From contig JBBEAM010000001.1 in the NCBI GenBank assembly GCA_040882845.1, forward strand, positions 48,142 to 112,141: a stretch of 64,000 nt of DNA, read 5' to 3'. Below the pieces are notes generated by a model. That model did not search any database, had not been told where the DNA came from, and saw nothing but the letters and a program-made list of their open reading frames with translations. Positions 32,807-51,157 of this stretch are shown piece by piece. This stretch comes from Rhodovibrionaceae bacterium. GTDB lineage: Bacteria > Pseudomonadota > Alphaproteobacteria > Kiloniellales > DSM-21159. A program made the translations under genes and the position numbers. Numbering within the stretch: the first letter of the stretch is position 1; each line of letters starts with the position of its first letter.

Positions 32807-32882
32807 GCCGCTTTAGCTCAGTTGGTAGAGCACCTCATTCGTAATGAGGGGGTCGTTGGTTCGAGTCCGACAAGCGGCACCA
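32807..32882 (+). tRNA. tRNA-Thr (anticodon CGU)
   Basis: 76 nt folded by hand. Acceptor gccgctt/aagcggc, D arm gctc-agttggta-gagc, anticodon arm cctca-ttCGTaa-tgagg, variable gggtc, T arm gttgg-ttcgagt-ccgac, discriminator A and encoded CCA. Confidence 0.9.
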
Positions 32883-32993
32883 TTTTTGCGGCGCATGGGT
32901 TTTCAGCCCCTTTTTTCTGGGGGTCCGATATCCGTCGATGCGCCTCGGCGGCGCTTACGACGCGTTCTTGCCCCGCCGATCGCAGGCATAAAT

Positions 32994-33782: not shown

Positions 33783-33789
33783 GCACGAT

Positions 33790-35103: not shown

Positions 35104-35185
35104 CCGTATAGCCCCACTCAAATGTTCTCGTTTAGTTCTATCAACTCCGAACATATTGCAGGGTCTCAGTTTAGGCAACCGAAAT

Positions 35186-35596
35186 CTAGGGCCATTCAAG
35201 GAAATCGACGAGTCTAGCGATAACAGCCTCTAGAGACCTGAGTTCGCATTGCCAGACTACTTCCACAGACCAACCTGCATCCTTGAGCGCGGATACGTTT
35301 TTGCGGTCTCGCATCCGGTTTTTCTGAATTTTCGGCTCCCAATAATCGAGCCTGCTCTTTGGGAGACGGCCCCAGCGGCAGTTGTGTCCATGCCAAAAGC
35401 ACCCATGAACGAAGATCGCCTTCCGACGGCTGGGAAAGACGAGGTCGGGAGAACCAGGCAGGTCTCGTCTATGCAAGCGGTAACGATAGCCAAGTCGGTG
35501 TAAGGCTCTGCGGACGACAAGCTCGGGCCGTGTGTTTTTCGTAGCCACACTGGCCATTATGCGGCTTCGTCGCTGCGAATCGACATGATCGGGCAT
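35186..35596 (-). CDS. vsr: very short patch repair endonuclease
   Basis: 136 aa. SRIMASVATKNTRPE, LPGSPDLVFPSRRKAIFVHGCFWHGH, YWEPKIQKNRMRDR and GWSVEVVWQCEL closely parallel E. coli Vsr as I recall it. Confidence 0.92.
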   Translation of the reverse strand: MPDHVDSQRRSRIMASVATKNTRPELVVRRALHRLGYRYRLHRRDLPGSPDLVFPSRRKAIFVHGCFWHGHNCRWGRLPKSRLDYWEPKIQKNRMRDRKNVSALKDAGWSVEVVWQCELRSLEAVIARLVDFLEWP

Positions 35597-35830
35597 TTCG
35601 ATACTCTAGCGGATTCGATCAGGTTTCATCTAGCAGTGCACGCTACGCCCGCACCGGTAACCCCTACTTCCCCCGCTGCGCCTCTCGCATTTCGCGCTGC
35701 TATCCACCTACTGCTGTAGGACGGTGTGCGCGCAAAGTATGGGGGAACCTGAGCGTCGGGGCGGAGAAGGGAAGTGGGGGACGGCGCGCTGATCGCAAAT
35801 GTTCGACGCGGCAAGGCTCCCGCAAAAACC

Positions 35831-36958: not shown

Positions 36959-37900
36959 GTGCTGCGAGGGAAGGAACAGGCGAATTTGAGCGTCGAGGCG
37001 GAGACGGGACAGAACGGCGGGGCCGGCGACTCCGCCCTGCGCGCGCGGCTGCGCAGCCTGGTGGAAAGCCGCCTGTTCCAGCATGCGATCATCGCCCTGA
37101 TCGTCGTCAACGCCGTCACCCTGGGGCTGGAAACCAGCGCCCGCGCCATGGCCGCCGCCGGGCCGCTGCTGGTCGCCCTCGACAAGGTCATCCTCGCCGT
37201 CTTCGTGGTCGAGCTGCTGGCCAAGCTCTACGTCTATCGCGGCGGCTTCTGGCGGCAGCCCTGGAACGTCTTCGACTTCATCGTGGTGGCCATCGCCCTG
37301 ATGCCCGCCGCCGGGCCGCTCTCGGTGCTGCGGGCGCTGCGCATCCTGCGCGTGCTGCGGCTGATTTCCAGCGTCAAGTCGCTGCGCCGCGTGGTCGGCG
37401 GCCTGCTGCAGGCGATCCCCGGCATGGGCTCGATCGTGCTGCTGATCGGGCTGATCTTCTACGTCGCGGCGGTGATCGCGACAAAGCTGTTCGGCGCCGA
37501 GTTCCCGCAGTGGTTCGGGACCATCGGCGACTCGGCCTTCAGCCTGTTCCAGATCATGACCCTGGAGTCCTGGTCGATGGGCATCGTGCGCCCGGTGATG
37601 GAGGTCTATCCCTACGCCTGGGTCTTCTTCGTGCCCTTCATCGTCGCCACCACCTTCACGGTGATGAACCTCTTCATCGGCATCATCGTCGACGCCATGC
37701 AGCGCGAGCACGGCGCCGAGCTGGCGGCCGAGACCGAGGCGCAGGAAAAGACCGCCGCCAAGGCCGAGGCGCGCCGCCAGGACCGCCTGGAGGACCTGAC
37801 CCGGGAGATCTCGGCGCTGCGCGGCGAGGTGACGCGGCTCGCCGAACGCCAGGACGGCGACGGCGGCGGTGGCGGCGGTGGCGGCGGGCGCAAGCCGTAG
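36959..37900 (+). CDS. bacterial voltage-gated sodium channel (BacNaV/NaChBac family)
   Basis: S4 with spaced Arg residues (LRALRILRVLRLISSVKSLRRVV). Pore and selectivity filter LFQIMTLESWSMGIVRPVMEVYPYAWVFFVPFI nearly matches NavAb as I recall it. C-terminal coiled-coil region. Start uncertain (GTG at 36959 or TTG at 36986). Confidence 0.9.
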   Translation: MLRGKEQANLSVEAETGQNGGAGDSALRARLRSLVESRLFQHAIIALIVVNAVTLGLETSARAMAAAGPLLVALDKVILAVFVVELLAKLYVYRGGFWRQPWNVFDFIVVAIALMPAAGPLSVLRALRILRVLRLISSVKSLRRVVGGLLQAIPGMGSIVLLIGLIFYVAAVIATKLFGAEFPQWFGTIGDSAFSLFQIMTLESWSMGIVRPVMEVYPYAWVFFVPFIVATTFTVMNLFIGIIVDAMQREHGAELAAETEAQEKTAAKAEARRQDRLEDLTREISALRGEVTRLAERQDGDGGGGGGGGGRKP

Positions 37901-37991: not shown

Positions 37992-39395
37992 GTGGAACGC
38001 CGCCTTGCCGCGATTCTGGCCGCCGACATGGCGGGTTACAGCCGGCTCATGGAGCAGGACGAGGACGGCGTGCTGGCGCGGCAGAAGCACCACCGCCGCA
38101 GCCTGATCGACCCGGCGGTCGCCGAACGCGGCGGACGCATCGTCAAGTCCACCGGCGACGGCCTGCTGGTCGAGTTCGCCTCGGCCCAGGACGCGGTACG
38201 CTGCGCCACCGAGATCCAGTCGCAGATGGCCGTGGAGGAGCGCGACAGCCCCTCCGACCGCCGCATCGCCTACCGGATCGGCATCAACCTGGGCGACGTG
38301 GTGTTCGAGGAGGGCGACATCTTCGGCGACGGGGTCAACATCGCGGCGCGCCTCGAAGGCATCGCCGAGCCCGGGGGGATCTGCATCTCCGGCGGGGTGC
38401 ACGAGACCGTCGCCGAGCATGTCCGGCAGGGATTCCGCGACATGGGCAGGCAGCGGGTCAAGAACATCTCGCGGCCGATCCGCGTCTGGCAGTGGACGCC
38501 GAGCCCGGGCGCGGAACCCAAGCTCTCCGCCGCGGCGCAGCAGCAGCGCGTGCGCTTCGCCATCGCCCCGGACGGCGTGCAGCTCGCCTGGGCCAGCCTC
38601 GGCGAGGGGCTGCCTGTGCTCAAGGCGCCGCACTGGATGAACCATCTGGAGTACGAGTGGCGCAGCCCCCTCTTCGCGCCGCTGTACAGCGAACTCGCGA
38701 ACCATTTCCAGCTGGTGCGCTTCGATCAGCGCGGCAACGGGCTTTCGGACTGGGATGCGCAGGAGATCAACGAGGACGCGATGGCCGGCGACATCGCCGC
38801 GGTCGCCGATGCGGCCGGGCTGAAGCGCTTCGCGCTGCTCGGTTTCTCGCAGGGCGCCGCCTTCGCGATCCGCTACGCCAACGAGAACCCGGAGCGGGTC
38901 GCCTGCCTGGTGCTGGTCGGCGGCTACCTGCGCGGCCGGATGAGACGCCCGGACCCGGAACAGAAGCAGCTCTACGAGGCGCTGACGCTGACGATCCGGG
39001 ACGGCTGGGGCTCGCCCAACCCGGTGTTCCGGCATTTCTTCACCTCGAGTTTCATCCCGGACAGCGGCGCCGAGAACGCCTCCTCCTTCGACGAGCTGCA
39101 GCGGATCGCGACCAGCCCGCAAAACGCGATCCGCATCTGGGAGATGAATGCGCAGATCGACGCCAGCGAAGAGGCCCGGCGCGTCTCCGTCCCGACCCTG
39201 GTGCTGCACTGCCAGGGCGACCGGGTGGCGCCGATCGACGAAGGCCAGCGGGCGGCGCGGCTGATCCCGGGGGCGGCCTTCGTCGAGCTGCCGGGCAACA
39301 ATCACATCCTCCTAGACGGGACCCCGGCCTTCGACCGCTTTTTCGAGGAACTGGTCGCCTTCGTCTCGGAACACCTCGAGGCCGCTCCAGCCTGA
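37992..39395 (+). CDS. class III adenylate/guanylate cyclase domain fused to an alpha/beta hydrolase domain
   Basis: N-terminal LAAILAADMAGYSRLM...KSTGDGLLVEFASAQDAVRCA...IGINLGDVV...GDGVNIAARLE (cyclase). C-terminal FDQRGNGLSD...LLGFSQGAA...GDRVAP...NNHILL (hydrolase fold). GTG start. Confidence 0.88.
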   Translation: MERRLAAILAADMAGYSRLMEQDEDGVLARQKHHRRSLIDPAVAERGGRIVKSTGDGLLVEFASAQDAVRCATEIQSQMAVEERDSPSDRRIAYRIGINLGDVVFEEGDIFGDGVNIAARLEGIAEPGGICISGGVHETVAEHVRQGFRDMGRQRVKNISRPIRVWQWTPSPGAEPKLSAAAQQQRVRFAIAPDGVQLAWASLGEGLPVLKAPHWMNHLEYEWRSPLFAPLYSELANHFQLVRFDQRGNGLSDWDAQEINEDAMAGDIAAVADAAGLKRFALLGFSQGAAFAIRYANENPERVACLVLVGGYLRGRMRRPDPEQKQLYEALTLTIRDGWGSPNPVFRHFFTSSFIPDSGAENASSFDELQRIATSPQNAIRIWEMNAQIDASEEARRVSVPTLVLHCQGDRVAPIDEGQRAARLIPGAAFVELPGNNHILLDGTPAFDRFFEELVAFVSEHLEAAPA

Positions 39396-40216: not shown

Positions 40217-41041
40217 ATGCCTGCGCCCAGCCCCGACCTCGGAACCCGCACCTCGATCTACCAGCCGGAGCAGCAGGGGCTGCGCTTTCCCGCCGAGCCG
40301 GCCTGCAACTCGCCGCAGGAGCTGCGCCTGCATCGCAAGCAGCGGCTGGTCGCGGCCTGCCGCGCCTTTGCCGGCTGGGGCTTCGACTATGGCTTCGCCG
40401 GGCACCTGACGATCCGCGATCCCGAGCACCCGGAGCTTTACTGGACCAATCCCATGGCGGTGCATTTCCGCGAGGTCCGGCTGTCCAACCTGATCCTGGT
40501 CGATCACGGCGGCCAGGTGGTCGAGGGCGACTACGCCGTCAACCGCGCCGGCTTCGTGCTGCACGCCGCGGTTCATGAGGCCAATCCCGACATCCTGGCG
40601 ATGTGCCACGCCCATACGGTCAACGGCACGGCCTTCGCCGCGCTCGGCAAGCCGCTGGCGCCGATCACCCAGGACGCCTGCGCCTTCTTCGAGGATCACG
40701 CGGTGATCGTCGAGGATGCCGGGGCGGTGGCGGTGGAGGAGGATGCCGGGGCGCGGATCTGCAGCGCCTTCAAGGGGGTCAAGGCGGCGATCCACCAGAA
40801 CCACGGGATCTTTTCGGCCAGCCGCCATTCGATCGATGCGGCGGCCTTCTGGTTCATGGCGCTGGAACGCTGCTGCGGCCAGCAGCTGATGGTCGAGGCG
40901 AGCGGGCAGCCGCCGCGCCTGGTTCCGCCCGAGGCCGCCCGCTACAGCCGCGCGCACGTCGGCAGCGAATACATCGGCTGGCTGCACTTCCAGCCGGTCT
41001 ACGACGAACTCGCCGCCCGCTGTCCGGAGATGTTCGACTAG
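40217..41041 (+). CDS. class II aldolase/adducin family protein
   Basis: 274 aa. GHLTIRDPE..., AGFVLHAAVHEANPDILAMCHAHTVNGTAF and HQNHGI are typical of the fold. Confidence 0.85.
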   Translation: MPAPSPDLGTRTSIYQPEQQGLRFPAEPACNSPQELRLHRKQRLVAACRAFAGWGFDYGFAGHLTIRDPEHPELYWTNPMAVHFREVRLSNLILVDHGGQVVEGDYAVNRAGFVLHAAVHEANPDILAMCHAHTVNGTAFAALGKPLAPITQDACAFFEDHAVIVEDAGAVAVEEDAGARICSAFKGVKAAIHQNHGIFSASRHSIDAAAFWFMALERCCGQQLMVEASGQPPRLVPPEAARYSRAHVGSEYIGWLHFQPVYDELAARCPEMFD

Positions 41042-41150
41042 CTGAAATCTGCAGGTCTGCAGTACGCGCACGGCGCGAAAACGCAGGGAAAGCTTGCCAG
41101 GGGCCCCGTGCTGAGAAATCCTGCGGGCATCTACCTGGGCCGGGAACAAC

Positions 41151-43346
41151 ATGCCGCTGCTGGAACATTCACGCCTCGAGCGTTCGCGCGGCGCCACGCT
41201 GCTCAGCGCCAGGCCGGTGGTGCGCCTGCAAGGCCGCCTGACCGACGCAGCGGGCCTGGCAAGGGCCTGGCCGGAGCTGACCGCCCGGATCGAGGCGGCG
41301 ATCGCCGCCGTCGGGCTGCAGGATCTGCAGCTCCAGGCCGGGGAATCCAGCGCCGCCGAGCGTGCCCGGGAGGCCTTCGCCCAGCTCCCGCCCCGCCTCG
41401 CGCCGGAGCAGGCCTGCGCGGAAATCGGCCGGCTGCTCGCCGCCGCCGCCGCGGCGCTGATGGCCGCGGCGCGCGCGCCCCAGGGCGCCTGGGGCGCGGT
41501 CAAGGCCTCGCCGCCGGAGTTCCTCGCCTACTGGGACGACTGGATGGACGGCGTCGGCCAAGCCGCCGGGCGGGCGGCGCAGGCGCTGCTTGAGGCTGCC
41601 TACGCCCGGCCCGGGGAAGATCTGGAGGAGACGGCGAAAACCGCTCTGGCGGAGGTGCGCGGCAAGCGGGTCGACGGCTTCATCTACACCAGCGTGCGGG
41701 CCGCCGAAAGCCGCGGCATCCCCTGGCGCCTGCTCGCCCCCGGCAGCCTGCTGGTCGCCTATGGCCAGGGCCGGCGGCAGCGCTGGATCCGCGCCACGCT
41801 GAGCGACGTCCAGAGCTACGCCAGCGTGTACATCACCCTGCGCAAGGACCTGACCAGCAAGCTGCTGGCGCGGGCCGGCTTTCCGGTGCCCGAGCACCGC
41901 CTGGTCAAGAGCCGGGCGGAGGCCGCCGCCGCCGCCGAGGCGCTGGACTATCCCCTGGTGGTCAAGCCCTTGAACGGCTCGCGAGCGGAGCACGTCTCGC
42001 TCTGGCTCGACAGCCCGGAGCAGGTGGCGGAGGCTTATGCGCTCTGCGGGCCCGAGGGCACCCCGGTCCTGGTCGAATGCCAGGCTCTGGGCGAGCCCTA
42101 CCGCGTCACCGTGTTCGGCGGCCGGGCCGTCGCCGCCGGGCGGCACTCGATCCCCGCGGTGACCGGCGACGGCGTCAGCAGCATCGCCGCGCTGATCGCC
42201 GCCTGGGACGCCCGGGCGAAGCTACCGGTGGCCGATAGCTACGCCCGTTACTACCAGATCGACCGGGAGTTCTACCGCGACCAGATGACTCAGCGGCTCG
42301 AGGCGCAGGGTCTGACCCTGGAGTCCGTTCCCGAGCCGGGCCGCGAGGTGCTGCTCGGCTACCTGCCCCAGCGCGCCGGCGGCGGGCTCTACAACGACGT
42401 TACCGACCGGATCCACCCCGGCCTGATGCGGATGGCCGAGGACATTGCCACGGTGCTCGGCAGTCCCACGCTCGGCGTCGACATCATCACCCCCGACGTC
42501 GCCAAGGCGCCGGGCGAGGCGCCGCTGGCGATCAACGAGGTCAATTCCTCGCCCAGCGCCCGGGCGCACGAGCAGACCGACCAGCCCCGGCGGGTCGCTG
42601 CGCAGGCCCTGGCGGCCGTCTTTCCGGGCGAAGCGAGGAGCGTGCTGGGCGGCGATGCCGGGCGCATTCCGCTCGCCCTGTTCTACGATTTTCCCGATCC
42701 GGCGGTGCTGGACAGCCTGGAAGCCCTGCTTCAAGCGGCCGGCTGGATGCCCGGGGTCGCCGATCCGCACACGGCGCGGATCGCTGGCTACGCCCTGCAT
42801 CCCGCCGACGGCAAGCGCAGCCACCCCGGGGCGGCGGTGTTGCGCGACCGCCGCGCGGATGCCGGTATTTTTGGCGTCGTCCTCAACGATCTCAGCCGCC
42901 GCGGTCTGCCCAGCGATCACGCCGATGTCGCTGCCTTCGCGCCGGGGACGCTCGAACGGCGGGACCAACTGCTGCGCCCGGCTGCCAGCCTGCTGGCCGG
43001 CTTGCCCGGGAGCGTGCTGCTGACAGCGCCGGGAGAGGCGCCGGACTGGCTCCGCGCCGCGGCGCGACACCGCCGCTGGATCGCCGTGGCGGCGCCGGAG
43101 GCGGGAGAGACTGCGCCACCGGGGGAGGGCGAGCTGCTGCGCTGCGAGGCCGGCGCCGAGGGCCAGCGGCGGGCGGTGCTGTGCGGCGCGGGAAGCCGCG
43201 ATCTGCTCTGCGACCGGCTCGAAGAGGAGAATCCGGCGGCGCAGCTCTGGGCGCTGGCGGCGCTGCTCGGCCTCGGCTTTTCGCCCGGTGAGATCCGCCG
43301 TCTGGCGCTGCGCGCTTGGGAGGCCCGCCATGGCGTCCCGGCCTGA
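41151..43346 (+). CDS. cyanophycin synthetase-like protein A (N domain + ATP-grasp + P-loop-less Mur-ligase-like tail; CphA2-style)
   Basis: 731 aa. RAAESRGIPWRLLAPGSLLVAYGQGRRQRWIRATLSDVQSYASVYITLRKDLTSKLL parallels the CphA N/G junction. ATP-grasp blocks YPLVVKPLNGSRAEHV, VLVECQ, YRVTVFGG, AINEVNSSP. The tail begins RIPLALFYDFPDPAV, where CphA has RIPxxxVTGTNGKTT. Confidence 0.75.
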   Translation: MPLLEHSRLERSRGATLLSARPVVRLQGRLTDAAGLARAWPELTARIEAAIAAVGLQDLQLQAGESSAAERAREAFAQLPPRLAPEQACAEIGRLLAAAAAALMAAARAPQGAWGAVKASPPEFLAYWDDWMDGVGQAAGRAAQALLEAAYARPGEDLEETAKTALAEVRGKRVDGFIYTSVRAAESRGIPWRLLAPGSLLVAYGQGRRQRWIRATLSDVQSYASVYITLRKDLTSKLLARAGFPVPEHRLVKSRAEAAAAAEALDYPLVVKPLNGSRAEHVSLWLDSPEQVAEAYALCGPEGTPVLVECQALGEPYRVTVFGGRAVAAGRHSIPAVTGDGVSSIAALIAAWDARAKLPVADSYARYYQIDREFYRDQMTQRLEAQGLTLESVPEPGREVLLGYLPQRAGGGLYNDVTDRIHPGLMRMAEDIATVLGSPTLGVDIITPDVAKAPGEAPLAINEVNSSPSARAHEQTDQPRRVAAQALAAVFPGEARSVLGGDAGRIPLALFYDFPDPAVLDSLEALLQAAGWMPGVADPHTARIAGYALHPADGKRSHPGAAVLRDRRADAGIFGVVLNDLSRRGLPSDHADVAAFAPGTLERRDQLLRPAASLLAGLPGSVLLTAPGEAPDWLRAAARHRRWIAVAAPEAGETAPPGEGELLRCEAGAEGQRRAVLCGAGSRDLLCDRLEEENPAAQLWALAALLGLGFSPGEIRRLALRAWEARHGVPA

Positions 43347-45483
43347 AGCCGAGATCAAGAGCTTCCGTGGCGCCAACCTGCTGGTTGCCCGGCCCTCGAC
43401 GATGCTGGAAATGGCGGTCCCCGATTGGCCGGGACTGCAGGACGCTGCGCGGCGAAGGAAGCTGGCCGAGGCCGTGAGAACGGCCTTGAGGCTCGAGGAC
43501 AGCCAAGGGCTCTGGGCCGGTCTGGCAAGGACCGCCGAGGCCGGTCCCGCCGAATTCCTCGCGCCGCTGCTCGCCCTGACGGCATTGGGGCTGCAGCGGC
43601 GGGTTGGCCGGCGGGTAACGCGGCACCGTGCCATCGTCGTCGCTGGCGGCAGGAAGCTCGTCGCGGTCTGGGAACACTTCACCGACTTCGAGGGCAGGGC
43701 CGCCGGCCGCCAGGCCCTCGATCTGGTCCAGGATTTCGCCGGCGCGGACAGCAGCCCGGCCAAGCGCGGCGCGCGCGCCGAAAAGGCGGTGGCGGCGCTG
43801 CGCGAGGAGCTGCCCGATCCCGTCGCCGACGTGATCATGGAGGGGCTGCAGGCGCGCGGCCTGCCCTGGCGGATCTTCGACAATCAGTGGCCGGCTTTCG
43901 AGGCCGGCACCGGCTGCAAGCGTCAGCGTCTGATGACTTCGATGCCCGACAGCCAGGGTCACCTCGACCGCATGGTCTTCCGCAACAAATTCCTGGCCGG
44001 GGCGATCCTGCGCGAGGCCGGGCTGCCGATGCCGCGGCACGAGCAGGTACGCAGCGCCGCGCAGGCGCTCGCCGCGGCCGGGCGGATCGGTTACCCGGTG
44101 GTGGTCAAGCCGGTCGATTCCGGCCGTTCGAAAGGCGTCTCGGTCAATCTGCGGGATGCCTCGGCCATTCCCGAAGCCTACGCCTTCGCCCGTCAGCACG
44201 GCTCCGCCGTGCTGGTGGAACGCTTCATCCCCGGTCTTCCTTACCGCATCCTGATCCTGGAGGGGGAGGTGATCGCCGCGGCGCTGCGCGGCGTCCCTGG
44301 CGTCACCGGCGACGGCGCGCTCAGCGTAGGCCAGCTGATCGAACGCGAGAACGCCCGCCGCGAGGAGGAGAACCTCGGCCTCAGCCAGCCGCTGCCGAGG
44401 ATCAACATCGCCGCCTTCGCCGAGGAATGCGACCGCCGCCTGGCCGAGCAGGACCTGACCCTCGACGGCGTTCCCGAGGCGGGGCAGGAGGTCTGGCTGG
44501 CGCATCATGCGCAGCGCGGGCGCGGCGGCCTCAATGTCGACGTCACGGCGGAGCTGCACCCCGACCACTTCGACCTGGCGGCGCAGATCTCCGCGATCAT
44601 GCGCTGCCCGATGATCGGCATCGACTTTATCACCCAGGACATCCGCCGTTCTTTCCGGGAGGTGCCTTGCGGAATCAACGAGGTCAACATCGAGCCGGCG
44701 CTGAACCTGCATATGCGCATGACGCGTACGCCGCGCGACGTCGTGGCGCCGCTGCTCGGCAAGATCTTCCCCCGGGGCGACGACGGGCGGATTCCCATGC
44801 TGACGGTCTATGGCCCGGCGTCGGCACCGCTCGGCCTGCTGCGGCGCGCCTATGCCGCCACGGGGCGGCGTCTCGGTTTCGCGGCGGGCGAAGGCGGCAC
44901 CTGGATAGGTTCGGAGCCGCTTGCCCTCGAGGGAGGGATCGACCGCAGGATCGAAAGCCTGCTGTACGATCCCCGCGTCGAGGCGCTGCTGCTCGAGCTC
45001 TGTCTCGAGGATTTCAGACGCGGCTTCGCCTTCGATCGCAGCGAGGCGACGCTGTATCTGCACGGCCCCGGCGAGGGCGACGGCAACCGCGCCGCCTGCG
45101 TCAAGCTGCTGCGGGAGACGACTCACGGGCTCGAGATCCTGCCGCTGGAGCAGCTCGAGAGCTGGCAGGCGGAATTCGGTGCCCTGCGCGCTCCGGCGGT
45201 GCTGTTCAGCGAGGCCCTGCGGCCCGAGGGCCTCTCCGCAGCGCTGTCCGGGGGGCATAGGGTCGTCGGCACCCGCGAAGGCGCAGCGGGCTCCCTGGGC
45301 GTCTTCGCCGGCGGCCTTTTCGATCTGCTGGCCGCTCTCGGCGCCGGGGCCAGCGCGGAACTACGGCGCGAAGCGCTGCTCGCCGCCGCCGGGCTGCTCG
45401 GCCTCGGCCTCTCGATCCAGGAAACGCGCCGCTGCCTGAACGCGGCGCTGGAGGAACAGGCTCAGGAGAGGGAGGCGGAATGA
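43330..45483 (+). CDS. cyanophycin synthetase-like protein B (paralog of A; same architecture)
   Basis: 717 aa from the ATG at 43330, which lies 17 nt inside gene A. N-terminal IKSFRGANLLVARPSTMLEMAV resembles the CphA N-terminus. ATP-grasp blocks YPVVVKPVDSGRSKGV, VLVERFIPG, YRILILEGE, GINEVNIEP. Tail begins RIPMLTVYGPASAPLG (no GKT P-loop). Confidence 0.75.
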   Translation: MASRPEAEIKSFRGANLLVARPSTMLEMAVPDWPGLQDAARRRKLAEAVRTALRLEDSQGLWAGLARTAEAGPAEFLAPLLALTALGLQRRVGRRVTRHRAIVVAGGRKLVAVWEHFTDFEGRAAGRQALDLVQDFAGADSSPAKRGARAEKAVAALREELPDPVADVIMEGLQARGLPWRIFDNQWPAFEAGTGCKRQRLMTSMPDSQGHLDRMVFRNKFLAGAILREAGLPMPRHEQVRSAAQALAAAGRIGYPVVVKPVDSGRSKGVSVNLRDASAIPEAYAFARQHGSAVLVERFIPGLPYRILILEGEVIAAALRGVPGVTGDGALSVGQLIERENARREEENLGLSQPLPRINIAAFAEECDRRLAEQDLTLDGVPEAGQEVWLAHHAQRGRGGLNVDVTAELHPDHFDLAAQISAIMRCPMIGIDFITQDIRRSFREVPCGINEVNIEPALNLHMRMTRTPRDVVAPLLGKIFPRGDDGRIPMLTVYGPASAPLGLLRRAYAATGRRLGFAAGEGGTWIGSEPLALEGGIDRRIESLLYDPRVEALLLELCLEDFRRGFAFDRSEATLYLHGPGEGDGNRAACVKLLRETTHGLEILPLEQLESWQAEFGALRAPAVLFSEALRPEGLSAALSGGHRVVGTREGAAGSLGVFAGGLFDLLAALGAGASAELRREALLAAAGLLGLGLSIQETRRCLNAALEEQAQEREAE

Positions 45484-46349
45484 AGACTTGGGTTCTCGCC
45501 AACCCGCCGCCGGTTTCCGAGGACACCGCCTATCTGCTGGGGCGGGTGACCTCGCGCAGCTCGGAAGTCGTGGTCACCCAGGTCGGGGAGCTGGACCGGG
45601 AAGTGCCGCCTCCGCCGGTGGGGGTCGAGGTCATCCTCAACCGCAGCTTCAACACCCAGGCGGAATTCCTACTGGGGCTGGATGCGCTGGCCGAGCGGTG
45701 CGGCGTACGCGTCTGCAATCCCGGCGCGGCGACGCTCGCCGCCTGCGACAAGCGCAGCTACATCGCCGACTATGCCGACGTGATTCCCGAAACCCGGATT
45801 GCCGGTAGCCGCGCGGCGCTGCGGCGCGTCTGGGAGGAACTGGGCGGCGATATCGTGATCAAGGAGCCCTTCGGCAAGCACGGCAAACAGGTCGAGCGCC
45901 TGCGCGCGCCCGCCGACCTGCCGGCGGCGGAGGCGCTGCTGGCCCAATCGCGCTGCGGCGAACTCGTGGCGCAGCGCTTCTGCAGCGGTTTTCTTGCCGG
46001 CGACAAGCGGGTGATCGTGCAGCGCCGGCCGGAAGGCGGCTACGCCGCCCTGGCCTGGTTTCAGCGCGTGCCGCGCCCCGGTGGCTGGAAAAGCAACGTC
46101 AGCGCGGGGGGCAGCGTCGTGGACTGCGATCTCTCGGCCGAGGAGATGACCCTGGCCGAAGCTCTGGCGGCGCGCAGCGGACTCGACTACGTCGGGCTGG
46201 ACCTCGCCCGACACGAGAGGCGTACGCTGTTGATCGAGACCAACAGCTACACCGGCGGCCACGTGAACTTCGATATCGTGCGGCGGGAACGTACGGGAGA
46301 CATCTTCGCGGAGCTCATCGCCCATCTGGCCAGCCAGGGCCGCTCGTAG
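45480..46349 (+). CDS. GshB/RimK-type ATP-grasp ligase
   Basis: 289 aa. ATG overlaps the gene B stop (ATGA). CDKRSYI, IVIKEPFGKHGKQV, VAQRF, GDKRVIVQRR, GGWKSNVSAGGS, GLDL and LIETNSYTGG fit the glutathione synthetase/RimK ATP-grasp pattern. Confidence 0.75.
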   Translation: MKTWVLANPPPVSEDTAYLLGRVTSRSSEVVVTQVGELDREVPPPPVGVEVILNRSFNTQAEFLLGLDALAERCGVRVCNPGAATLAACDKRSYIADYADVIPETRIAGSRAALRRVWEELGGDIVIKEPFGKHGKQVERLRAPADLPAAEALLAQSRCGELVAQRFCSGFLAGDKRVIVQRRPEGGYAALAWFQRVPRPGGWKSNVSAGGSVVDCDLSAEEMTLAEALAARSGLDYVGLDLARHERRTLLIETNSYTGGHVNFDIVRRERTGDIFAELIAHLASQGRS

Positions 46350-46623
46350 CGCTCAGCGGCGGTTTGCCGCCGGCGGGGGACCTGCTGCGGCGCGTCAGAT
46401 GCAGCGCGATCCAGCCGCGCAGCCGGCGGAACCATAGAATCATCGGCATGCGGATCTGCTGGCTGCCGCTGAACATCACCACGACGCCGAGCGGCAGCAT
46501 CCAGATGCCGAGCACCGGCAGGAAACTGAAAATCCCGCCCAGGATCAGAAAGCAGCCGATGATGAAGCGGATCGCCAGCGGCCAGGTCAGCAGCCGGCGG
46601 AGATAGGGGTTGGGTCTTTGCAT
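46315..46623 (-). CDS. small membrane protein (102 aa; possibly PGPGW-type)
   Basis: Two adjacent hydrophobic helices (LAIRFIIGCFLILGGIFSFLPVLGIWMLPLGVVVMF). Its 3' end overlaps the 3' end of the ATP-grasp gene by 35 nt, convergently. Family call is tentative. Confidence 0.45.
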   Translation of the reverse strand: MQRPNPYLRRLLTWPLAIRFIIGCFLILGGIFSFLPVLGIWMLPLGVVVMFSGSQQIRMPMILWFRRLRGWIALHLTRRSRSPAGGKPPLSATSGPGWPDGR

Positions 46624-47466: not shown

Positions 47467-47553
47467 GCCTTCTTCGGCGGCGCCAAAAGGCATGACTCTC
47501 CACACAAATCCACAGTAGGCTGAGCGAGATCACGCCGGGTGTTGGGGCGAAAG

Positions 47554-49407
47554 ATGATCAGGCTCGTTCTTATTGGCGCCATCCTGGCGCTTTCGAGTTG
47601 TCTTGCCGCAGCCGCCCTGGCCGCGGAGGGCGACAGCGCGGTTTACGTCGAACTGCGGCCGGAGGGCGCGGACGAGGACGCGGCGCGCGAGCGCTGGAAG
47701 CTCTACAGCGCGAGCTACGCCCTGGTCATCGGCATCGACGACTACAGCGCCGGCTGGCCGCGCCTGTCCAACGCCGTCGGCGATGCCGAGGCGGTGGCCG
47801 CGGCGCTGCGGGACCGCGGTTTTGAGGTGACCACGCTGTACAATCCCGGCGGGGACAGGCTGCGCGGCGAGCTGCGCAGCTTCTTCGCGCTCAAGGGCAG
47901 AGATCCCGAGGCGCGCCTGTTCCTCTGGTTCGCCGGCCACGGCTACAGCGAGTTCGACGAGGGCTATCTGGTGCCCGCCGACGCGCCGGACCCTGACGAT
48001 CCCGAGTTCCTGCTGCGCGCCCTGCATCTTGGCGACGTCGGGTCGATGGTCCGCATCGCGCGCTCCAAGCATGTCTTCGCGGTCTTCGACTCCTGCTTCG
48101 CCGGGACCATTTTCAACGCCAGCCGGGCGCGCCCGCCGGCCGCCATCACCCGCGCCGTGAGCGCCCCGGTGCGCCAATTCCTGACCTCCGGCGATGCCGA
48201 TCAGCAGGTCTCCGACGACGGCGCCTTCCGGCGGCTGTTCCTCAAGGCCATCGGCGGCGAGGAGAATGCCGACGCCAACGACGACGGCTATCTCACGGGC
48301 ACCGAACTGAGCCTTTTCCTCGAGGATCGCGTGGTCAATCTCACCCAGTCCCTGCAGACGCCGCGCAGCGGCAAGTTGCGCGACCAGCGCTTCGATCAGG
48401 GCGATTTCGTGTTCCTGCTGCCGCAGAGCGCGGAATCGCAGGTCGCTGCCGTCCAGCCGCAAGGCGGGTCCGGGACCGGCACCCGCGCGCTTCCGGCTGC
48501 CGATCCCGAGCTGGCCGTGGAACTGGCCTTCTGGGACGCGATCAAGGCAAGCGACAGCCCGGACGACTACACGGCCTATCTCACGGCCTATCCCGACGGG
48601 CGTTTTGCCGTGCTTGCCCAATCCCGCAGGGCGCGGCTGGAATCGGGAGCCGCCGCGCGCGAAGCCGAGCACGAACGCCTGGAAGCCGAGGCGCAGGCGC
48701 GCAGCGCCGACGAACAGCATCATCGGGCCGAGGACGAACAGCACCATCAGGCCGAAGCGGCGCGGGACGCACAGCTCGCCGCGTTGCCGCCTGCCGCGCC
48801 CCAAGTCAATCCCGAGGCGGATCCCGCTGCCCAGGAAGAAGAGGCGCTCGGCCTGACCCGCGGCGATCGCCGGGAGCTGCAGGCCGCCCTGACCGCGCTC
48901 GGCTTCGACACGCGCGGGATCGACGGGGTGTTCGGGCCCGGTACGCGCACCGCCATCCGCGGCTATCAGGCGGCCAAAGGGGCCGAGCGAAGCGGCTATC
49001 TGACCGCATCCCTGGCCGGCAGCCTGCGGGCCGAAGCGCCGCGGGCGCCGGCAGGCGAAACCCAGACGGCCGCCCGGCCGGCGCAAGCGGCGATCTCGAA
49101 AAGCGCGGCCGGAGACTACCTGCGCGCCAACGCCAGCGCCATGAAGCAGGAGCTGATGGAATACAACCAGCAGCACCGCGTGATTCACGGCAGCTACGGC
49201 GGCACCGCCGAGCGCCTCGACATCGTCTCCTGGCGGGTCGAGCAGGTGACCGGCGACGAAGCCGTGGTCGCCGTGGCCTACCGCGAGCCGATCGTCGTCC
49301 TGGCCGGCAACAGCGGGACGCAGCGCTTCCTGCTGAAGTGGGACGGGTCCGGATTTTCCTTCGTCGGCCATGAAAACGGCGGAGCCATGAGGCGCACCGG
49401 CGGCTAG
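47554..49407 (+). CDS. secreted caspase-family (peptidase C14) protein with a peptidoglycan-binding domain, paralog 1
   Basis: Signal peptide. YALVIGIDDY...LSNAVGDAEAV. Catalytic-dyad contexts WFAGHGY and VFDSCFAG. PG_binding_1-like LQAALTALGFDTRGIDGVFGPGTRTAIRGYQ. I prefer the ATG at 47554 over the GTG at 47539. Confidence 0.82.
   Translation: MIRLVLIGAILALSSCLAAAALAAEGDSAVYVELRPEGADEDAARERWKLYSASYALVIGIDDYSAGWPRLSNAVGDAEAVAAALRDRGFEVTTLYNPGGDRLRGELRSFFALKGRDPEARLFLWFAGHGYSEFDEGYLVPADAPDPDDPEFLLRALHLGDVGSMVRIARSKHVFAVFDSCFAGTIFNASRARPPAAITRAVSAPVRQFLTSGDADQQVSDDGAFRRLFLKAIGGEENADANDDGYLTGTELSLFLEDRVVNLTQSLQTPRSGKLRDQRFDQGDFVFLLPQSAESQVAAVQPQGGSGTGTRALPAADPELAVELAFWDAIKASDSPDDYTAYLTAYPDGRFAVLAQSRRARLESGAAAREAEHERLEAEAQARSADEQHHRAEDEQHHQAEAARDAQLAALPPAAPQVNPEADPAAQEEEALGLTRGDRRELQAALTALGFDTRGIDGVFGPGTRTAIRGYQAAKGAERSGYLTASLAGSLRAEAPRAPAGETQTAARPAQAAISKSAAGDYLRANASAMKQELMEYNQQHRVIHGSYGGTAERLDIVSWRVEQVTGDEAVVAVAYREPIVVLAGNSGTQRFLLKWDGSGFSFVGHENGGAMRRTGG
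48709..48756 (+). repeat. 24-nt in-frame tandem repeat x2 (DEQHHRAE / DEQHHQAE) within caspase paralog 1
   Basis: gacgaacagcatcatcgggccgag followed by gacgaacagcaccatcaggccgaa. Lies in a charged His/Glu/Gln-rich segment that has no counterpart in paralog 2. Confidence 0.8.
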
Positions 49408-49447: not shown

Positions 49448-51157
49448 ATGCGATATCGCGGTCTGGCCGCCCTCTGGCTCGGCGCCGCCATAATCCTCCA
49501 GGCCGCGCCGCTCGACGCGGCCGAGACGGACAGCGCCGTCTATGTCGAACTGCGCGCGGAAGGCGCCGGCGCCGAGGGCGCGCGCGAGCGCTGGAAGCTC
49601 TACGGCGCCAGCCACGCCCTGGTCATCGGCATCGACGACTACAGCGCCGGCTGGCCGCGCTTGTCCAATGCCGTCAGGGATGCCGAAGCCGTGGCGGCGG
49701 GCCTGAAAAGCCAGGGCTTCGAGGTCGAACTGCTGCGCAATCCAGGCTCCCAGGACCTGCGCACGGCGCTGCGCGCCTTCTTCGCGCGCAAGGGCGCCGA
49801 TCCCGAGGCGCGGCTGTTCCTCTGGTATGCCGGTCACGGACACACCGAGTACGGCGAGGGCTATCTGGTGCCCTCCGACGCCCCCCTGCCCGGCGAGCCG
49901 GACTTCGCCTTCCAGGCGCTGCACCTGGGCGACGTCGGCGCGATGGTGCGCATCGCGCGCGCCAAGCACGTCTTCGCGGTGTTCGACTCCTGCTTCGCGG
50001 GCACCATCTTCAACGCCAGCCGCGCGCGCCCGCCGGCCGCCATCACCCGTGCGGTCAATGAACCGGTGCGCCAGTTCCTGACCTCCGGGGACGCCGACCA
50101 GGAAGTCTCCGACGACGGCACCTTCCGCGACCTCTTCCTGCGTGCGCTCACCGGCAAGGAGGACGCCGACGCCAACGACGACGGCTATCTCACCGGGACC
50201 GAACTGAGCCTTTTCCTCGAGGATCGCGTGATCAACCTGACCCAGTCCCTGCAGACGCCGCGCAGCGGCAAGCTGCGCGACCGCCGTTTCGACCAGGGCG
50301 ACTTCGTCTTTCTACTGCCTGGTGCGGCAGAGCGGCAGGTCGCCTCGGCGGCGGGGGGAGCGGCCCCGCCTTCCGGAACGCGCGCGCTGCCCCAAGTCGA
50401 TCCGGCATTGGCGGTCGAGCTCGCGTTCTGGCAGTCGATCCAGGCTTCGAGCAGCGCCGCCGATTACAAGGCCTATCTGGCGAGCTATCCGGAGGGGCAG
50501 TTCAGGACGCTCGCCGAGGCGCGGCTGGCCGACTTGACGGCGGCATCGGAGGACCCGCAGCTTGCCGTTTTGCCGCCTGATCCCGCGGCCCAGGTCGAAG
50601 CCGCGCTCGATTTGAGCCACGGCGAGAGGGAAGAGGTTCAGCGGGCGTTGACCGCGCTCGGCTACGATACCAAAGGGGTCGACGGCGCTTTCGGCCCCGG
50701 GACGCGGGGTGCGATCGGCGCCTATCAAGCCGCCAAGGGACTGGAACCGAACGGCTACCTGACGGCCTCGCTGTTCGGCGCGCTGATGGCCGAGACGCCG
50801 GAGACCGCGCCTCAAGCGCCGGCTGCCGCCGCGCTGCCGTCTCCTGCGGCGATCACGGCCGAGGCCTTCGATGCCTATCTCGAGAGCAATCGAAGGCGCA
50901 TGAAGGGGGGACTCGTTCGCTACAACGAGCGTCACAAGGCGATCGTCCGGGACAACGGCAGTCCCGATCTTCGCCCGCTGCGCTTCCCCACCTGGGTGCT
51001 GACCGAAGCCGACGGCGACGAGGCGCTGGTTGCCGTCGGTTACCTCGACCCCGATGCCGGGACCACTGGCAAGCAGCGGTTCCTGTTCAGATGGACCGGT
51101 ACCGAGTTCGAGGTTATCGGCCATGAGGAGAATGGAGAAATCAAGCGCGCCCGATAG
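49448..51157 (+). CDS. secreted caspase-family (peptidase C14) protein with a peptidoglycan-binding domain, paralog 2
   Basis: Strong SD (aaggaggggaaggagg). Signal peptide. HALVIGIDDY, WYAGHGH, VFDSCFAG. PG-binding block VQRALTALGYDTKGVDGAFGPGTRGAIGAYQ. Long stretches of near-identical DNA shared with paralog 1. Confidence 0.85.
   Translation: MRYRGLAALWLGAAIILQAAPLDAAETDSAVYVELRAEGAGAEGARERWKLYGASHALVIGIDDYSAGWPRLSNAVRDAEAVAAGLKSQGFEVELLRNPGSQDLRTALRAFFARKGADPEARLFLWYAGHGHTEYGEGYLVPSDAPLPGEPDFAFQALHLGDVGAMVRIARAKHVFAVFDSCFAGTIFNASRARPPAAITRAVNEPVRQFLTSGDADQEVSDDGTFRDLFLRALTGKEDADANDDGYLTGTELSLFLEDRVINLTQSLQTPRSGKLRDRRFDQGDFVFLLPGAAERQVASAAGGAAPPSGTRALPQVDPALAVELAFWQSIQASSSAADYKAYLASYPEGQFRTLAEARLADLTAASEDPQLAVLPPDPAAQVEAALDLSHGEREEVQRALTALGYDTKGVDGAFGPGTRGAIGAYQAAKGLEPNGYLTASLFGALMAETPETAPQAPAAAALPSPAAITAEAFDAYLESNRRRMKGGLVRYNERHKAIVRDNGSPDLRPLRFPTWVLTEADGDEALVAVGYLDPDAGTTGKQRFLFRWTGTEFEVIGHEENGEIKRAR

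What the first reader, a model, noticed from the sequence alone, without database searches (positions are those of the whole stretch)
41151..46349. Three translationally coupled ATP-grasp ligase genes: two tandem CphA2-style cyanophycin-synthetase-like paralogs plus a GshB/RimK-like ligase
Seen in sequence: three co-directional ORFs have overlapping stop and start codons. The gene B ATG at 43330 lies 17 nt inside gene A (stop at 43346). The gene C ATG at 45480 overlaps the gene B TGA as ATGA. This implies one co-translated unit. A (731 aa) and B (717 aa) are paralogs with the same layout. Each has a segment like the CphA N domain and N/G junction (A: RGATLLSARPVVRLQG ... RAAESRGIPWRLLAPGSLLVAYGQGRRQRWIRATLSD; B: IKSFRGANLLVARPSTMLEMAV ... 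LQARGLPWRIFDN...CKRQRLMTSM). Each has an ATP-grasp core retaining the VVKP Lys and the EVN metal motif, and each has a tail of about 230 aa. C (289 aa) is a GshB/RimK-type ATP-grasp (GDKRVIVQRR, GGWKSNVSAGGS). Established knowledge, from memory: CphA1 consists of an N domain, an ATP-grasp G domain and a Mur-ligase-like M domain, about 870-900 aa in total. CphA2 is shorter, has a reduced M domain without an ATP site, and polymerises preformed beta-Asp-Arg dipeptides. Inference: this may be a split pathway. The GshB/RimK-like enzyme would make an (iso)peptide building block or decorate side chains in trans, and a possibly heteromeric pair of CphA2-like enzymes would polymerise it. The product would be a cyanophycin-like or different poly-amino-acid polymer in an alphaproteobacterial background. 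I recognise no cyanophycinase (S51) or isoaspartyl-dipeptidase-like gene anywhere in the window.
Basis: partly seen in the sequence, partly recalled or inferred. Interest (0 to 1): 0.85.

Follow-up and report, generated by a model that had tools for sequence, protein, structure and literature searches.

The report
Three-ligase cyanophycin-synthetase-like operon, product unknown
A rare, conserved three-gene operon in marine and halophilic alphaproteobacteria encodes two divergent cyanophycin-synthetase-like enzymes and a small glutathione-synthetase/RimK-like ligase, and it probably makes an unknown amino-acid polymer or peptide rather than ordinary cyanophycin.

Summary
A (41151-43346, 731 aa), B (43330-45483, 717 aa) and C (45480-46349, 289 aa) are real, co-directional genes with overlapping junctions. 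The same A-B-C order recurs in at least 9 independent loci.

AlphaFold models of A and B (pLDDT 93-95) superpose over their full length on CphA1 N, G and Mcore domains (TM 0.73-0.82). Both lack Mlid, the M-domain P-loop lysine and the N-domain Cx19HxxEH site. So each has only its ATP-grasp G site, and its core residues are invariant.

They are not CphA2 and not ordinary CphA1:
- Residues that bind aspartate or the Arg-decorated chain in solved CphA1/CphA2 structures are replaced in family-specific ways.
- NCBIfam scores are 239 and 268 bits against cut-offs of 850-877.
- A and B form their own small clade.

C is an intact ATP-grasp ligase about equally distant from GshB, RimK and LysX.

The system is very rare, and I found no literature on it. 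In one lineage a genuine cphA1 directly follows C.

Best reading, which is inferred: a heteromeric A/B polymerase with two different G sites, plus C acting in trans, makes a non-canonical poly- or oligo-amino acid. Novelty: new variant of a known kind. Interest about 0.6.

The parts
41093..41122 (+). Conserved promoter-like motif upstream of gene A: CTTGCCA, 17 nt, then AATCCT. GAAAT is invariant.
   Evidence: An alignment of five upstream regions (window, L003, L008 and two in L007) keeps CTTG(C/T)(C/A)A, 17 nt, then (G)AA(T/C)(T/C)(C/A)T about 30-60 nt before the ATG. One of the five is the spacer before the second A paralog. The simple sigma-70 scan did not call it. Its function is inferred.
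41151..43346 (+). Gene A, 731 aa: a CphA-like protein with an N domain (about residues 1-173), an ATP-grasp G domain (about 174-503) and an Mcore-like tail without a P-loop (about 504-731).
   Evidence: Supported. NCBIfam cyanophycin synthetase scores 239 bits against a cut-off of 877. The AF2 model has pLDDT 93.4. Foldseek against CphA1 gives TMq 0.73-0.78. The ATP-grasp core residues are invariant. The M P-loop Lys is Asp in 7 of 7 A orthologs.
43318..43323 (+). Shine-Dalgarno GGGAGG for gene B, located inside the 3' end of gene A.
   Evidence: Read directly from the sequence. It lies 6 nt before the ATG at 43330.
43330..45483 (+). Gene B, 717 aa: a CphA-like protein with an N domain (about 1-161), an ATP-grasp G domain (about 162-486) and an Mcore-like tail without a P-loop (about 487-717).
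   Evidence: Supported. NCBIfam scores 268 bits against a cut-off of 877. The AF2 model has pLDDT 95.1 and pTM 0.92. Foldseek against CphA1 gives TMq 0.76-0.82 over about 740 columns. B-specific invariant residues are R266, S267, G397, R398 and A457.
45470..45475 (+). Shine-Dalgarno GGGAGG for gene C, located inside the 3' end of gene B.
   Evidence: Read directly from the sequence. It lies 4 nt before the ATGA overlap.
45480..46349 (+). Gene C, 289 aa: a stand-alone ATP-grasp ligase of the GshB/RimK/LysX group.
   Evidence: Pfam gives GSH-S_ATP at 2.8e-15 and RimK at 5.4e-10. NCBIfam scores are all far below cut-off. A profile search of the PDB gives GshB 5e-17, RimK 1.5e-14 and LysX 2.8e-13. 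The catalytic motifs VxKxP, GDKR, R196, SN..GG and LIETN are invariant in 16 family members.

Best explanation
The operon encodes a self-contained, ATP-dependent, non-ribosomal amide-bond-forming machine built from three ATP-grasp active sites.

What A and B are:
- They are ancient paralogs of the cyanophycin-synthetase scaffold (N-G-Mcore).
- Both accessory active sites are dead: the Mur-ligase-type M site and the N-domain peptidase site. Only the G site remains.
- As in CphA1/CphA2, a G site would phosphorylate the C-terminal carboxylate of a growing chain and let an incoming amine attack the acyl-phosphate.

How I think they work (inferred):
- A and B most likely assemble into a hetero-oligomer through the head-to-head G/M dimer interface seen in every solved CphA.
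- This would give two non-identical elongation sites.
- C is a free-standing GshB/RimK/LysX-type ligase. Enzymes of this type add a free amino acid to a carboxylate of a peptide. C would supply the third amide bond in trans.
- C most plausibly makes the side-chain or branch ligation that the dead M domains can no longer do. Alternatively it ligates the monomer or primer.

Product (inferred): a poly- or oligo-amino acid related to, but chemically different from, Asp-Arg cyanophycin.

Shown: gene structure, domain architecture, which sites are intact or dead, conservation, rarity.
Inferred: A/B heteromer, the role of C, polymeric nature and composition of the product.
For: Architecture:
- AF2 models of both proteins have pLDDT 93-95. 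They superpose on the CphA1 N, G and Mcore domains over the whole chain.

Which sites are alive:
- The ATP-grasp core (B numbering K220, K260, E297, R306, D432, E451, N453) is invariant in all 100 aligned A, B and CphA sequences.
- The M P-loop Lys is K in 57 of 57 full-length CphA1, but D in 7 of 7 A and A/D/E in 13 of 13 B.
- The HxxEH motif is absent from both N domains.

The substrate pockets differ from cyanophycin enzymes, and differently in A and B (TeCphA1 numbering):
- H267 is Arg in 19 of 20 A and B sequences.
- N394 is mostly Gln.
- S396 and T397 are Gly and Arg in 13 of 13 B.
- G456 is Ala in 13 of 13 B and mostly Ser in A.
- R458 is Asn or Ser in B but is kept in 5 of 7 A.
- R323 is kept in B but is His in A.
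- The E215 position is hydrophobic in B and aromatic in A.
- The residue roles come from PMC9427784 and PMC10273328.

Both paralogs are maintained:
- A and B are separate orthologous groups (about 29% identity to each other, 35-72% within each group).
- They are always adjacent and in the same order.
- They stay within one small clade in 30 of 30 bootstraps.

Paired modules elsewhere: other members of the superfamily fuse two or three CphA-like G modules in one chain (P0176, P0177, P0183, P0186, P0216, P0218, P0235, P0239, P0246). This is a Rosetta-stone-type hint that paired modules act together.

C:
- C is catalytically intact and is always present.
- One locus has a second C paralog and another has a second A paralog.

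Link to cyanophycin: in L016/L021 a genuine cphA1 follows C by 89 bp on the same strand. It scores 709 bits over the truncated gene and has GTNGKT and NISTGG.
Against: - No product, activity or A-B complex has been observed. Everything mechanistic is inferred from homology.
- The nucleophile-binding large loop of A is poorly conserved among A orthologs, and its lid loop has lost the glycines. A might therefore be a scaffold or regulatory subunit rather than a second polymerase.
- No hydrolase, exporter or regulator is conserved next to the triad. Nothing in the context says 'storage polymer'.
- The cphA1 adjacency occurs in only one of about nine lineages.
- C-like proteins at 38-45% identity occur without A or B.
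- Strict A+B sisterhood is broken by two uncharacterised proteins of about 695 aa (P0184, P0224) in most bootstraps.
Confidence: 0.5

Rival explanations
1. Split CphA2-type route to ordinary cyanophycin. C ligates Asp and Arg into beta-Asp-Arg, and A/B polymerise that dipeptide exactly as CphA2 does.
For: The architecture matches CphA2: N, G and an inactive M. A and B retain R309 (the StCphA2 R308 equivalent) and all ATP/Mg ligands. A cphA1 gene is adjacent in L016/L021.
Against: Residues whose mutation abolishes CphA2 or CphA1 activity are not conserved. StCphA2 N393 and S395 (Te N394 and S396) are Gln and Gly/Ala/variable. The acidic residue that binds the Arg side chain (St D212, Te E215) is hydrophobic or aromatic. 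G456 is invariant in 57 of 57 CphA1 but is Ala or Ser here. There is no cyanophycinase or dipeptidase in any of the loci. GshB/RimK/LysX-type enzymes normally extend a peptide carboxylate rather than join two free amino acids (established knowledge of those families).
Confidence: 0.12
2. The three ligases build a defined small peptide rather than a polymer, each forming one amide bond in sequence. Candidates are a tri- or tetrapeptide compatible solute, a thiol or a cofactor tail. This would resemble GshA/GshB, NAGGN synthetase or the Mur ligases.
For: The closest non-CphA relatives of the G domains are small-molecule ligases: the GshF ATP-grasp module and NAGGN synthetase (TIGR03103, 1e-31 and 1e-42). 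C is nearest to GshB. The hosts are marine or halophilic, where peptide osmolytes are used (MAG names and sample sources; the osmolyte link is inference). No polymer-degrading enzyme is linked.
Against: Both A and B keep the complete N domain and Mcore of the polymerases at high model confidence. These are not needed by GshF or NAGGN-type enzymes. The duplication of A or of C in some loci is not obviously compatible with a fixed assembly line.
Confidence: 0.2
3. Only one of A and B is the enzyme. The other, probably A, is a catalytically weak or inert scaffold or regulatory paralog, as in many pseudoenzyme pairs. The system is then a two-site machine (B + C).
For: The lid loop of A has lost the conserved glycines (G268 is Ala, G270 is Asn or His) and carries Glu or Asp where CphA1 has Arg or Lys. 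Its large loop varies among orthologs, whereas the equivalent residues of B are invariant. Pfam ATP-grasp models score A below their cut-offs.
Against: All ATP, Mg and acyl-phosphate ligands (K, K, E, R, D, E, N) are invariant in every A ortholog. A keeps R458, which B has lost. A has been kept as a full-length ORF for as long as B.
Confidence: 0.13
4. The system modifies an existing macromolecule rather than making a free product. Options are extending the C-terminus of a specific protein (RimK/S6- or LysX/LysW-like) or further decorating cyanophycin made by a separate CphA1.
For: C belongs to the group containing RimK and LysX/ArgX, which act on protein C-termini. CphA G domains extend peptide C-termini. 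cphA1 is adjacent in one lineage.
Against: No conserved small carrier or substrate gene accompanies the triad. The only recurrent small ORF (46315-46623, minus strand) is a hydrophobic membrane protein restricted to one lineage. cphA1 is absent from the flanks of the other loci, including 41 kb upstream and 17 kb downstream in the window.
Confidence: 0.05

Closest known systems
Cyanophycin synthetase 1 (CphA1; PDB 7LG5, 7LGM, 7LGN, 7WAC)
   Same: It is the best sequence and fold match for A and B: E 1e-36 to 1e-55, and TMq 0.73-0.82 over N, G and Mcore. The ATP-grasp catalytic residues, including R309, are the same, and the presumed acyl-phosphate chemistry at a peptide C-terminus is the same.
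   Different: A and B have no Mlid, no M-domain P-loop or Lys499, and no N-domain Cx19HxxEH. The Asp- and Arg-recognising residues (E215, H267, N394, S396, G456, and R458 in B) are replaced. The chains are 717-731 aa instead of about 870-900. They are two distinct subunits instead of one. NCBIfam scores are about 30% of the cut-off.
Cyanophycin synthetase 2 (CphA2; PDB 7TA5, 8FXH/8FXI)
   Same: [quoted passage not shown]
   Different: CphA2 is a cyanobacterial offshoot of CphA1 with an M remnant of about 150 aa. A and B match it less well than CphA1 (E 1e-28 to 1e-41; TMq 0.56-0.64). They keep a full Mcore, are alphaproteobacterial and lack D212, N393 and S395. CphA2 works as a homo-oligomer and is not paired with a GshB-like ligase.
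GshB / RimK / LysX-ArgX group of small ATP-grasp ligases
   Same: C has the same fold-level motifs (GDKR, R, SN..GG, ExN) and the same size. These enzymes add an amino acid to a carboxylate of a peptide or protein.
   Different: C is roughly equidistant from all three families (5e-17 to 3e-13). It scores 63-66 bits against cut-offs of 143-408 and has no GSH-S_N domain hit. Its close family (49% identity or more) is found next to A-B wherever the contig is long enough.
GshF ATP-grasp module and NAGGN synthetase (TIGR03103)
   Same: These are the next-best relatives of the A and B G domains.
   Different: They have no CphA N domain or Mcore, and they make a single small molecule.
Uncharacterised 'short CphA-like' proteins and multi-module fusions (e.g. 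P0176, P0184, P0224)
   Same: They share the same superfamily radiation, the N-G-dead-M layout and, for P0184 and P0224, the G(x)PYR and INEVN motifs. Some fuse two G modules.
   Different: They have different loop signatures and contexts. P0089 and P0081 have no GshB-like neighbour. None is characterised.

Membership tests
ATP-grasp superfamily (A, B and C) | Conserved Lys/Lys/Glu ATP ligands, a catalytic Arg and an Asp/Glu/Asn Mg triad in an ATP-grasp fold. | tested here: met
   These residues are invariant in all aligned sequences.
Cyanophycin synthetase 1 (CphA1) | Curated family score (TIGR02068 cut-off 850; NF010623 cut-off 877). | tested here: not met
   A scores 205 and 239 bits and B scores 243 and 268 bits, covering only model positions about 63/115 to 570.
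Cyanophycin synthetase 1 (CphA1) | Complete M domain (Mcore + Mlid) with the Mur-ligase P-loop GTNGKT (Lys499) for Arg ligation. | tested here: not met
   The chains end after Mcore. The P-loop Lys column is K in 57 of 57 CphA1, D in 7 of 7 A and A/D/E in 13 of 13 B. There are no Pfam Mur_ligase hits.
Cyanophycin synthetase 1 (CphA1) | G-domain residues that bind substrate Asp and the cyanophycin terminus (H267, R309, R323, N394, S396, G456, R458; E215 from the partner protomer). | tested here: not met
   Only R309 is kept in both. R323 is kept in B and R458 in most A. The others are replaced in family-specific ways.
Cyanophycin synthetase 1 (CphA1) | N-domain fold. The primer-generating Cx19HxxEH site is optional and present in 83% of CphA1. 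| tested here: inconclusive
   The N-domain fold is present in both models. The motif is absent, but it is not obligatory for the family. Pfam PF18921 is not detected.
Cyanophycin synthetase 2 (CphA2) | N-G-M architecture with a truncated, catalytically inactive M domain. | tested here: met
   However, the Mcore here is about 230 aa against about 150 aa in StCphA2.
Cyanophycin synthetase 2 (CphA2) | Residues required for cyanophycin and beta-Asp-Arg handling (StCphA2 T163, D212, R308, D362, N393, S395). | tested here: not met
   The R308 equivalent is kept. The D212, N393 and S395 equivalents are replaced. T163 and D362 could not be mapped reliably.
Cyanophycin synthetase 2 (CphA2) | Membership of the cyanobacterial CphA2 lineage derived from CphA1. 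| tested here: not met
   A and B match CphA2 structures less well than CphA1. They form their own clade among non-cyanobacterial short CphA-like proteins. The hosts are Alphaproteobacteria. No bona fide CphA2 sequence was in my trees, so this rests on the PDB comparisons.
Cyanophycin synthetases in general | [quoted passage not shown] | not testable with these tools
   This needs expression and product analysis.
Glutathione synthetase GshB (C) | Curated score (TIGR01380 cut-off 299; NF003573 cut-off 272) and the GSH-S_N substrate-binding domain. | tested here: not met
   C scores 62.6 and 65.3 bits. Only GSH-S_ATP is detected, with no PF02951 hit at E up to 0.1.
RimK family alpha-L-glutamate ligase (C) | Curated score (TIGR00768 cut-off 143.4; NF007764 cut-off 331). 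| tested here: not met
   C scores 65.8 and 20.9 bits.
Known anti-phage defence systems | A match to any PADLOC model. | tested here: not met
   No hits for A, B or C.

The most novel reading that the evidence does not exclude
A and B form an obligate heteromeric polymerase whose two different G sites add two different monomers in alternation (or backbone plus branch). C performs in trans the ligation that the M domain does in cis in CphA1. The product would be a previously undescribed natural poly-amino acid, such as an alternating or differently branched polymer. That would add a new member to the very short list of non-ribosomal amino-acid homo- and co-polymers: cyanophycin, poly-gamma-glutamate and epsilon-polylysine.
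Probability: 0.3. Interest if true: 0.85.

Novelty: new variant of a known kind. Interest (0 to 1): 0.6.

Why it matters
Cyanophycin synthetases are the only well-understood ATP-grasp amino-acid polymerases, and cyanophycin is being developed as a green polymer.

This operon looks like a natural re-engineering of that scaffold. The machine is split into two non-identical polymerase subunits, both accessory sites are dead, and a separate small ligase is added. All the residues that give Asp/Arg specificity are changed.

If it makes a new polymer, it would:
- widen the known chemistry of non-ribosomal poly-amino acids;
- provide parts for making designer polyamides.

It also points to a large, uncharacterised radiation of CphA-like proteins. 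About 4,000 cluster representatives match at E below 1e-30 (a figure that also includes ordinary CphA1), many of the best hits are about 700 aa, and some are fused in tandem or to CapA- or MurF-like domains.

If it instead proves to be a divergent route to ordinary cyanophycin or to a small peptide, the interest is mainly enzymological.

Tried and rejected
- Upstream class II aldolase (40217-41041) as part of the unit: rejected. In L003 and L008 it is several genes away, and it is absent from L004, L006 and L016.
- Downstream HlyIII and the caspase-like/PG-binding genes: these reflect synteny within the Rhodovibrionaceae-like lineage only, and are absent from the Kiloniellaceae-like loci.
- Small minus-strand ORF 46315-46623 as a carrier or substrate peptide: it is hydrophobic, has no Pfam hit and is lineage-restricted.
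- Amidohydrolase in L004 as an isoaspartyl dipeptidase: it is PhnM-like.
- Defence-system reading: no PADLOC hits.
- Plasmid-borne or cultured relatives: only cphA at under 35% identity on plasmids.
- Literature: five searches found nothing on a CphA-like pair with a GshB-like ligase. One search was rejected for syntax.
- Strict A+B monophyly: supported 50/50 with the first sampling. With 163 sequences, two other proteins (P0184, P0224) usually join the clade, so I claim only a shared small clade. These are NJ trees on corrected p-distances, and no ML tree was possible. One tree script timed out.
- Context of the nearest outgroups P0089 and P0081: they have different neighbours and no GshB-like gene.
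- The genome-wide scans use two short peptide patterns, so 'two loci in 185,579 species' and 'two loci in JGI metagenomes' are lower bounds.
- Terminator and sigma-70 scans of the operon gave nothing useful.
- An A:B multimer prediction could not be run with the tools.

Full report
**1. Observation**

- A runs 41151-43346 (731 aa), B from ATG 43330 to 45483 (717 aa), and C 45480-46349 (289 aa).
- The B ATG lies 17 nt inside A, behind a GGGAGG at 43318-43323.
- The C ATG overlaps the B stop as ATGA, behind a GGGAGG at 45470-45475.
- Gene calls on a public contig with identical DNA give the same three products.
- The NCBI proteins are annotated only as hypothetical proteins of a Rhodovibrionaceae MAG.

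**2. Conservation**

Context look-ups and two collection scans recovered the same A-B-C order in about nine independent loci.

| Locus | Source | Arrangement |
|---|---|---|
| window / L001 | Rhodovibrionaceae MAG | A-B-C |
| L003 = L010 | uncultured alphaproteobacterial MAG | A-B-C |
| L004 / L005 | TARA ocean | A-B-C-C' |
| L006 | GCA_041591105.1 | A-B-C |
| L007 | metagenome | A'-A-B-C |
| L008 / L009 | metagenome | A-B-C |
| L011 | Kiloniellaceae MAG | A-B, then the contig ends within B |
| L016 / L021 | Logan and JGI metagenomes | A-B-C-cphA1 |
| L020 | JGI metagenome | A-B-C |

- The overlaps (17 or 4 nt for A/B, 4 nt for B/C) are kept in most loci.
- Flanking genes are conserved only within each of two lineages. 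So the unit is the triad itself.
- A promoter-like motif, CTTG(C/T)(C/A)A, 17 nt, then AA(T/C)(T/C)(C/A)T, is conserved 30-60 nt upstream of A in five upstream regions.

**3. Rarity**

- Among 5.8 billion protein clusters, A has 7 relatives, B has 13 and C has 38.
- An exhaustive HMMER search of 1.84 billion cluster representatives finds only two full-length B-type representatives. Scores then fall from over 1000 to 534 bits.
- Pattern scans found two loci among 185,579 species genomes and two in the JGI metagenomes. These are lower bounds.
- Nothing closer than cphA at under 35% identity is on plasmids.

**4. What A and B are**

Family and fold:
- NCBIfam places both nearest cyanophycin synthetase, at 239 and 268 bits against cut-offs of 850-877. 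Only the N part, G and the start of M are covered.
- Sequence searches of the PDB give CphA1 (1e-36 to 1e-55) ahead of CphA2 (1e-28 to 1e-41) and GshF.
- AlphaFold models are confident: B has pLDDT 95.1 and pTM 0.92, and A has 93.4 and 0.90.
- Both models align over their whole length to CphA1 chains in which only N, G and Mcore are ordered (TMq 0.73-0.82). They align less well to CphA2 (0.56-0.64).
- So both are N-G-Mcore proteins without Mlid.

Active sites:
- The Mur-type P-loop is gone. The Lys column is K in 57 of 57 full-length CphA1, D in 7 of 7 A and A/D/E in 13 of 13 B.
- The N-domain Cx19HxxEH peptidase motif (PMC9262961) is absent.
- The ATP-grasp core is invariant in every A and B (B numbering K220, K260, E297, R306, D432, E451, N453).
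- Each protein therefore has one live active site.

**5. Not cyanophycin-type pockets**

I used the residue roles established for TeCphA1 (PMC9427784) and StCphA2 (PMC10273328). I then compared 57 full-length CphA1 with 13 B and 7 A sequences.

| TeCphA1 residue | Full-length CphA1 (n=57) | B (n=13) | A (n=7) |
|---|---|---|---|
| E215 | Asp or Glu in 65% | hydrophobic | aromatic |
| H267 | His or Gln | Arg 13/13 | Arg 6/7 |
| R323 | Arg 54/57 | Arg 13/13 | His 6/7 |
| N394 | Asn 55/57 | Gln 10/13 | Gln 4/7 |
| S396 | Ser 54/57 | Gly 13/13 | variable |
| T397 | Thr 47/57 | Arg 13/13 | Gly 4/7 |
| G456 | Gly 57/57 | Ala 13/13 | mostly Ser |
| R458 | Arg 53/57 | Asn or Ser | Arg 5/7 |

- Only R309 is universal.
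- N393A and S395A kill StCphA2. H267A, N394A and R458A impair TeCphA1.
- B has a sharply conserved signature of its own. A has a different and looser one.
- This argues for substrates other than Asp/Arg, and for different roles for A and B.

**6. Phylogenetic position**

- A and B are about 29% identical to each other and 20-29% identical to CphA1.
- In NJ trees each group is monophyletic.
- With the first sampling, A+B is a clade in 50 of 50 bootstraps, lying outside CphA1.
- With 163 sequences, the smallest clade holding A and B contains at most three other proteins in 30 of 30 bootstraps.
- The members of this clade share G(x)PYR and INEVN motifs.
- The surrounding radiation of roughly 640-800-aa CphA-like proteins is large and uncharacterised.
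- Two nearby outgroups have quite different neighbours and no GshB-like gene.
- Several members fuse two or three G modules in one chain, and one adds a CapA-like domain.

**7. What C is**

- C gives Pfam GSH-S_ATP and RimK hits.
- Its NCBIfam scores are 63-66 bits against cut-offs of 143-408.
- A family profile hits GshB (5e-17), RimK (1.5e-14) and LysX (2.8e-13) about equally.
- The catalytic motifs are invariant in 16 family members.
- Members with 49% identity or more sit next to A-B whenever the contig is long enough. Homologs at 38-45% identity occur alone.

**8. Link to cyanophycin**

- In L016, and in L021 from a different sample, a genuine cphA1 starts 89 bp after C on the same strand.
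- It has Pfam Cyanophycin_syn and Mur_ligase_M domains, scores 709 bits over a gene cut by the contig end, and carries GTNGKT, NISTGG and EINASPGLRPH.
- No other locus shows this.
- The 64-kb window has no cphA1, cyanophycinase or isoaspartyl dipeptidase.

**9. Mechanism**

Shown:
- There are three intact ATP-grasp sites in a conserved, overlapping operon.
- There are two dead accessory sites per large subunit.
- The pockets are non-cyanophycin in type.

Inferred:
- A and B form a hetero-oligomer with two different chain-elongating sites.
- C supplies the third amide bond in trans. Most plausibly this is the branch ligation lost with the M site, because its relatives add an amino acid to a peptide carboxylate.
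- The product is a poly- or oligo-amino acid other than Asp-Arg cyanophycin.

I give this 0.5. The rivals are:
- canonical cyanophycin via a split CphA2-like route, 0.12;
- a defined small peptide, 0.2;
- one paralog being a scaffold, 0.13;
- modification of a protein or of cyanophycin, 0.05.

**10. Verdict**

The family assignment and dead M site are right. CphA2 membership and a cyanophycin product are not supported.
- I found no literature on such a triad.
- It is a new, rare variant of the cyanophycin-synthetase kind of machine with an unknown product. It is a good target for expression and product analysis, and of clear but specialist interest.

Noticed in passing
L016:9962-12208 and L021:2295-3344: In one lineage a bona fide CphA1-type cyanophycin synthetase gene follows gene C by 89 bp on the same strand. 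It has an intact GTNGKT P-loop, NISTGG and the Cyanophycin_syn N domain. The two copies are 95% identical and come from different samples.
   Followed up: yes
L004:12208-13101 and L007:5394-7544: Copy-number variants of the system exist. A second C paralog is inserted between B and C (A-B-C'-C) in a TARA ocean contig. A second A paralog with its own copy of the upstream motif (A'-A-B-C) is in another metagenome. B is always single.
   Followed up: partly
proteins P0176, P0177, P0183, P0186, P0216, P0218, P0235, P0239, P0246: Uncharacterised relatives carry two or three CphA-like ATP-grasp modules fused in one polypeptide. P0176 adds a C-terminal CapA/PGA_cap-like domain. P0218 and P0235 add AMP-binding (adenylation) domains.
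   Followed up: partly
proteins P0210, P0226, P0274, P0284 (1738-2233 aa): These giant fusions have a CphA1-like N-G-M region followed by what look, from reading the sequences, like MurF-like ligase module(s) and a CapA-like metallophosphatase domain. A Microvirga plasmid homolog is annotated only as 'CapA family protein' (H3). They may make other decorated poly-amino acids.
   Followed up: no
window 32807-35830: A tRNA gene (32807-32879) is followed by an islet of about 3 kb with low GC (0.57-0.61 against about 0.70). The islet holds a C5 DNA methyltransferase (PF00145, 454 aa) and a 262-aa protein without a family hit, both on the minus strand. It is probably an acquired restriction-modification module.
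   Followed up: partly
window 47539-49407 and 49448-51157: Two tandem paralogs combine a caspase-like Peptidase_C14 domain with a PG_binding_1 domain. One to three copies sit at the same position in related genomes (L003, L007, L008). Their function is unknown.
   Followed up: no
window 36959-37900 and 37992-39395: An ion-transport (Ion_trans) protein gene is followed by a guanylate/adenylate cyclase fused to an alpha/beta-hydrolase domain. The pair is conserved in L008.
   Followed up: no
window 46315-46623 (minus strand): A small hydrophobic ORF (102 aa, no Pfam hit) is convergent with gene C and overlaps its last 35 nt. ORFs of 89-102 aa without a Pfam hit sit at the same position in L001, L003, L007 and L008.
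   Followed up: partly
L017:3-1225 and L014:6513-7980: Distant C-like ligases (44-45% identity) occur without A or B. One follows another ATP-grasp fragment and precedes six ORFs with no family hits. Another sits beside a methylase, a ResIII helicase, DUF4268 and DUF4760 genes (a defence-island-like setting).
   Followed up: no
window 142-4266: A large NAD-specific glutamate dehydrogenase (Bac_GDH family, at least 1374 aa) lies at the left end of the window, in an otherwise housekeeping chromosomal context.
   Followed up: no
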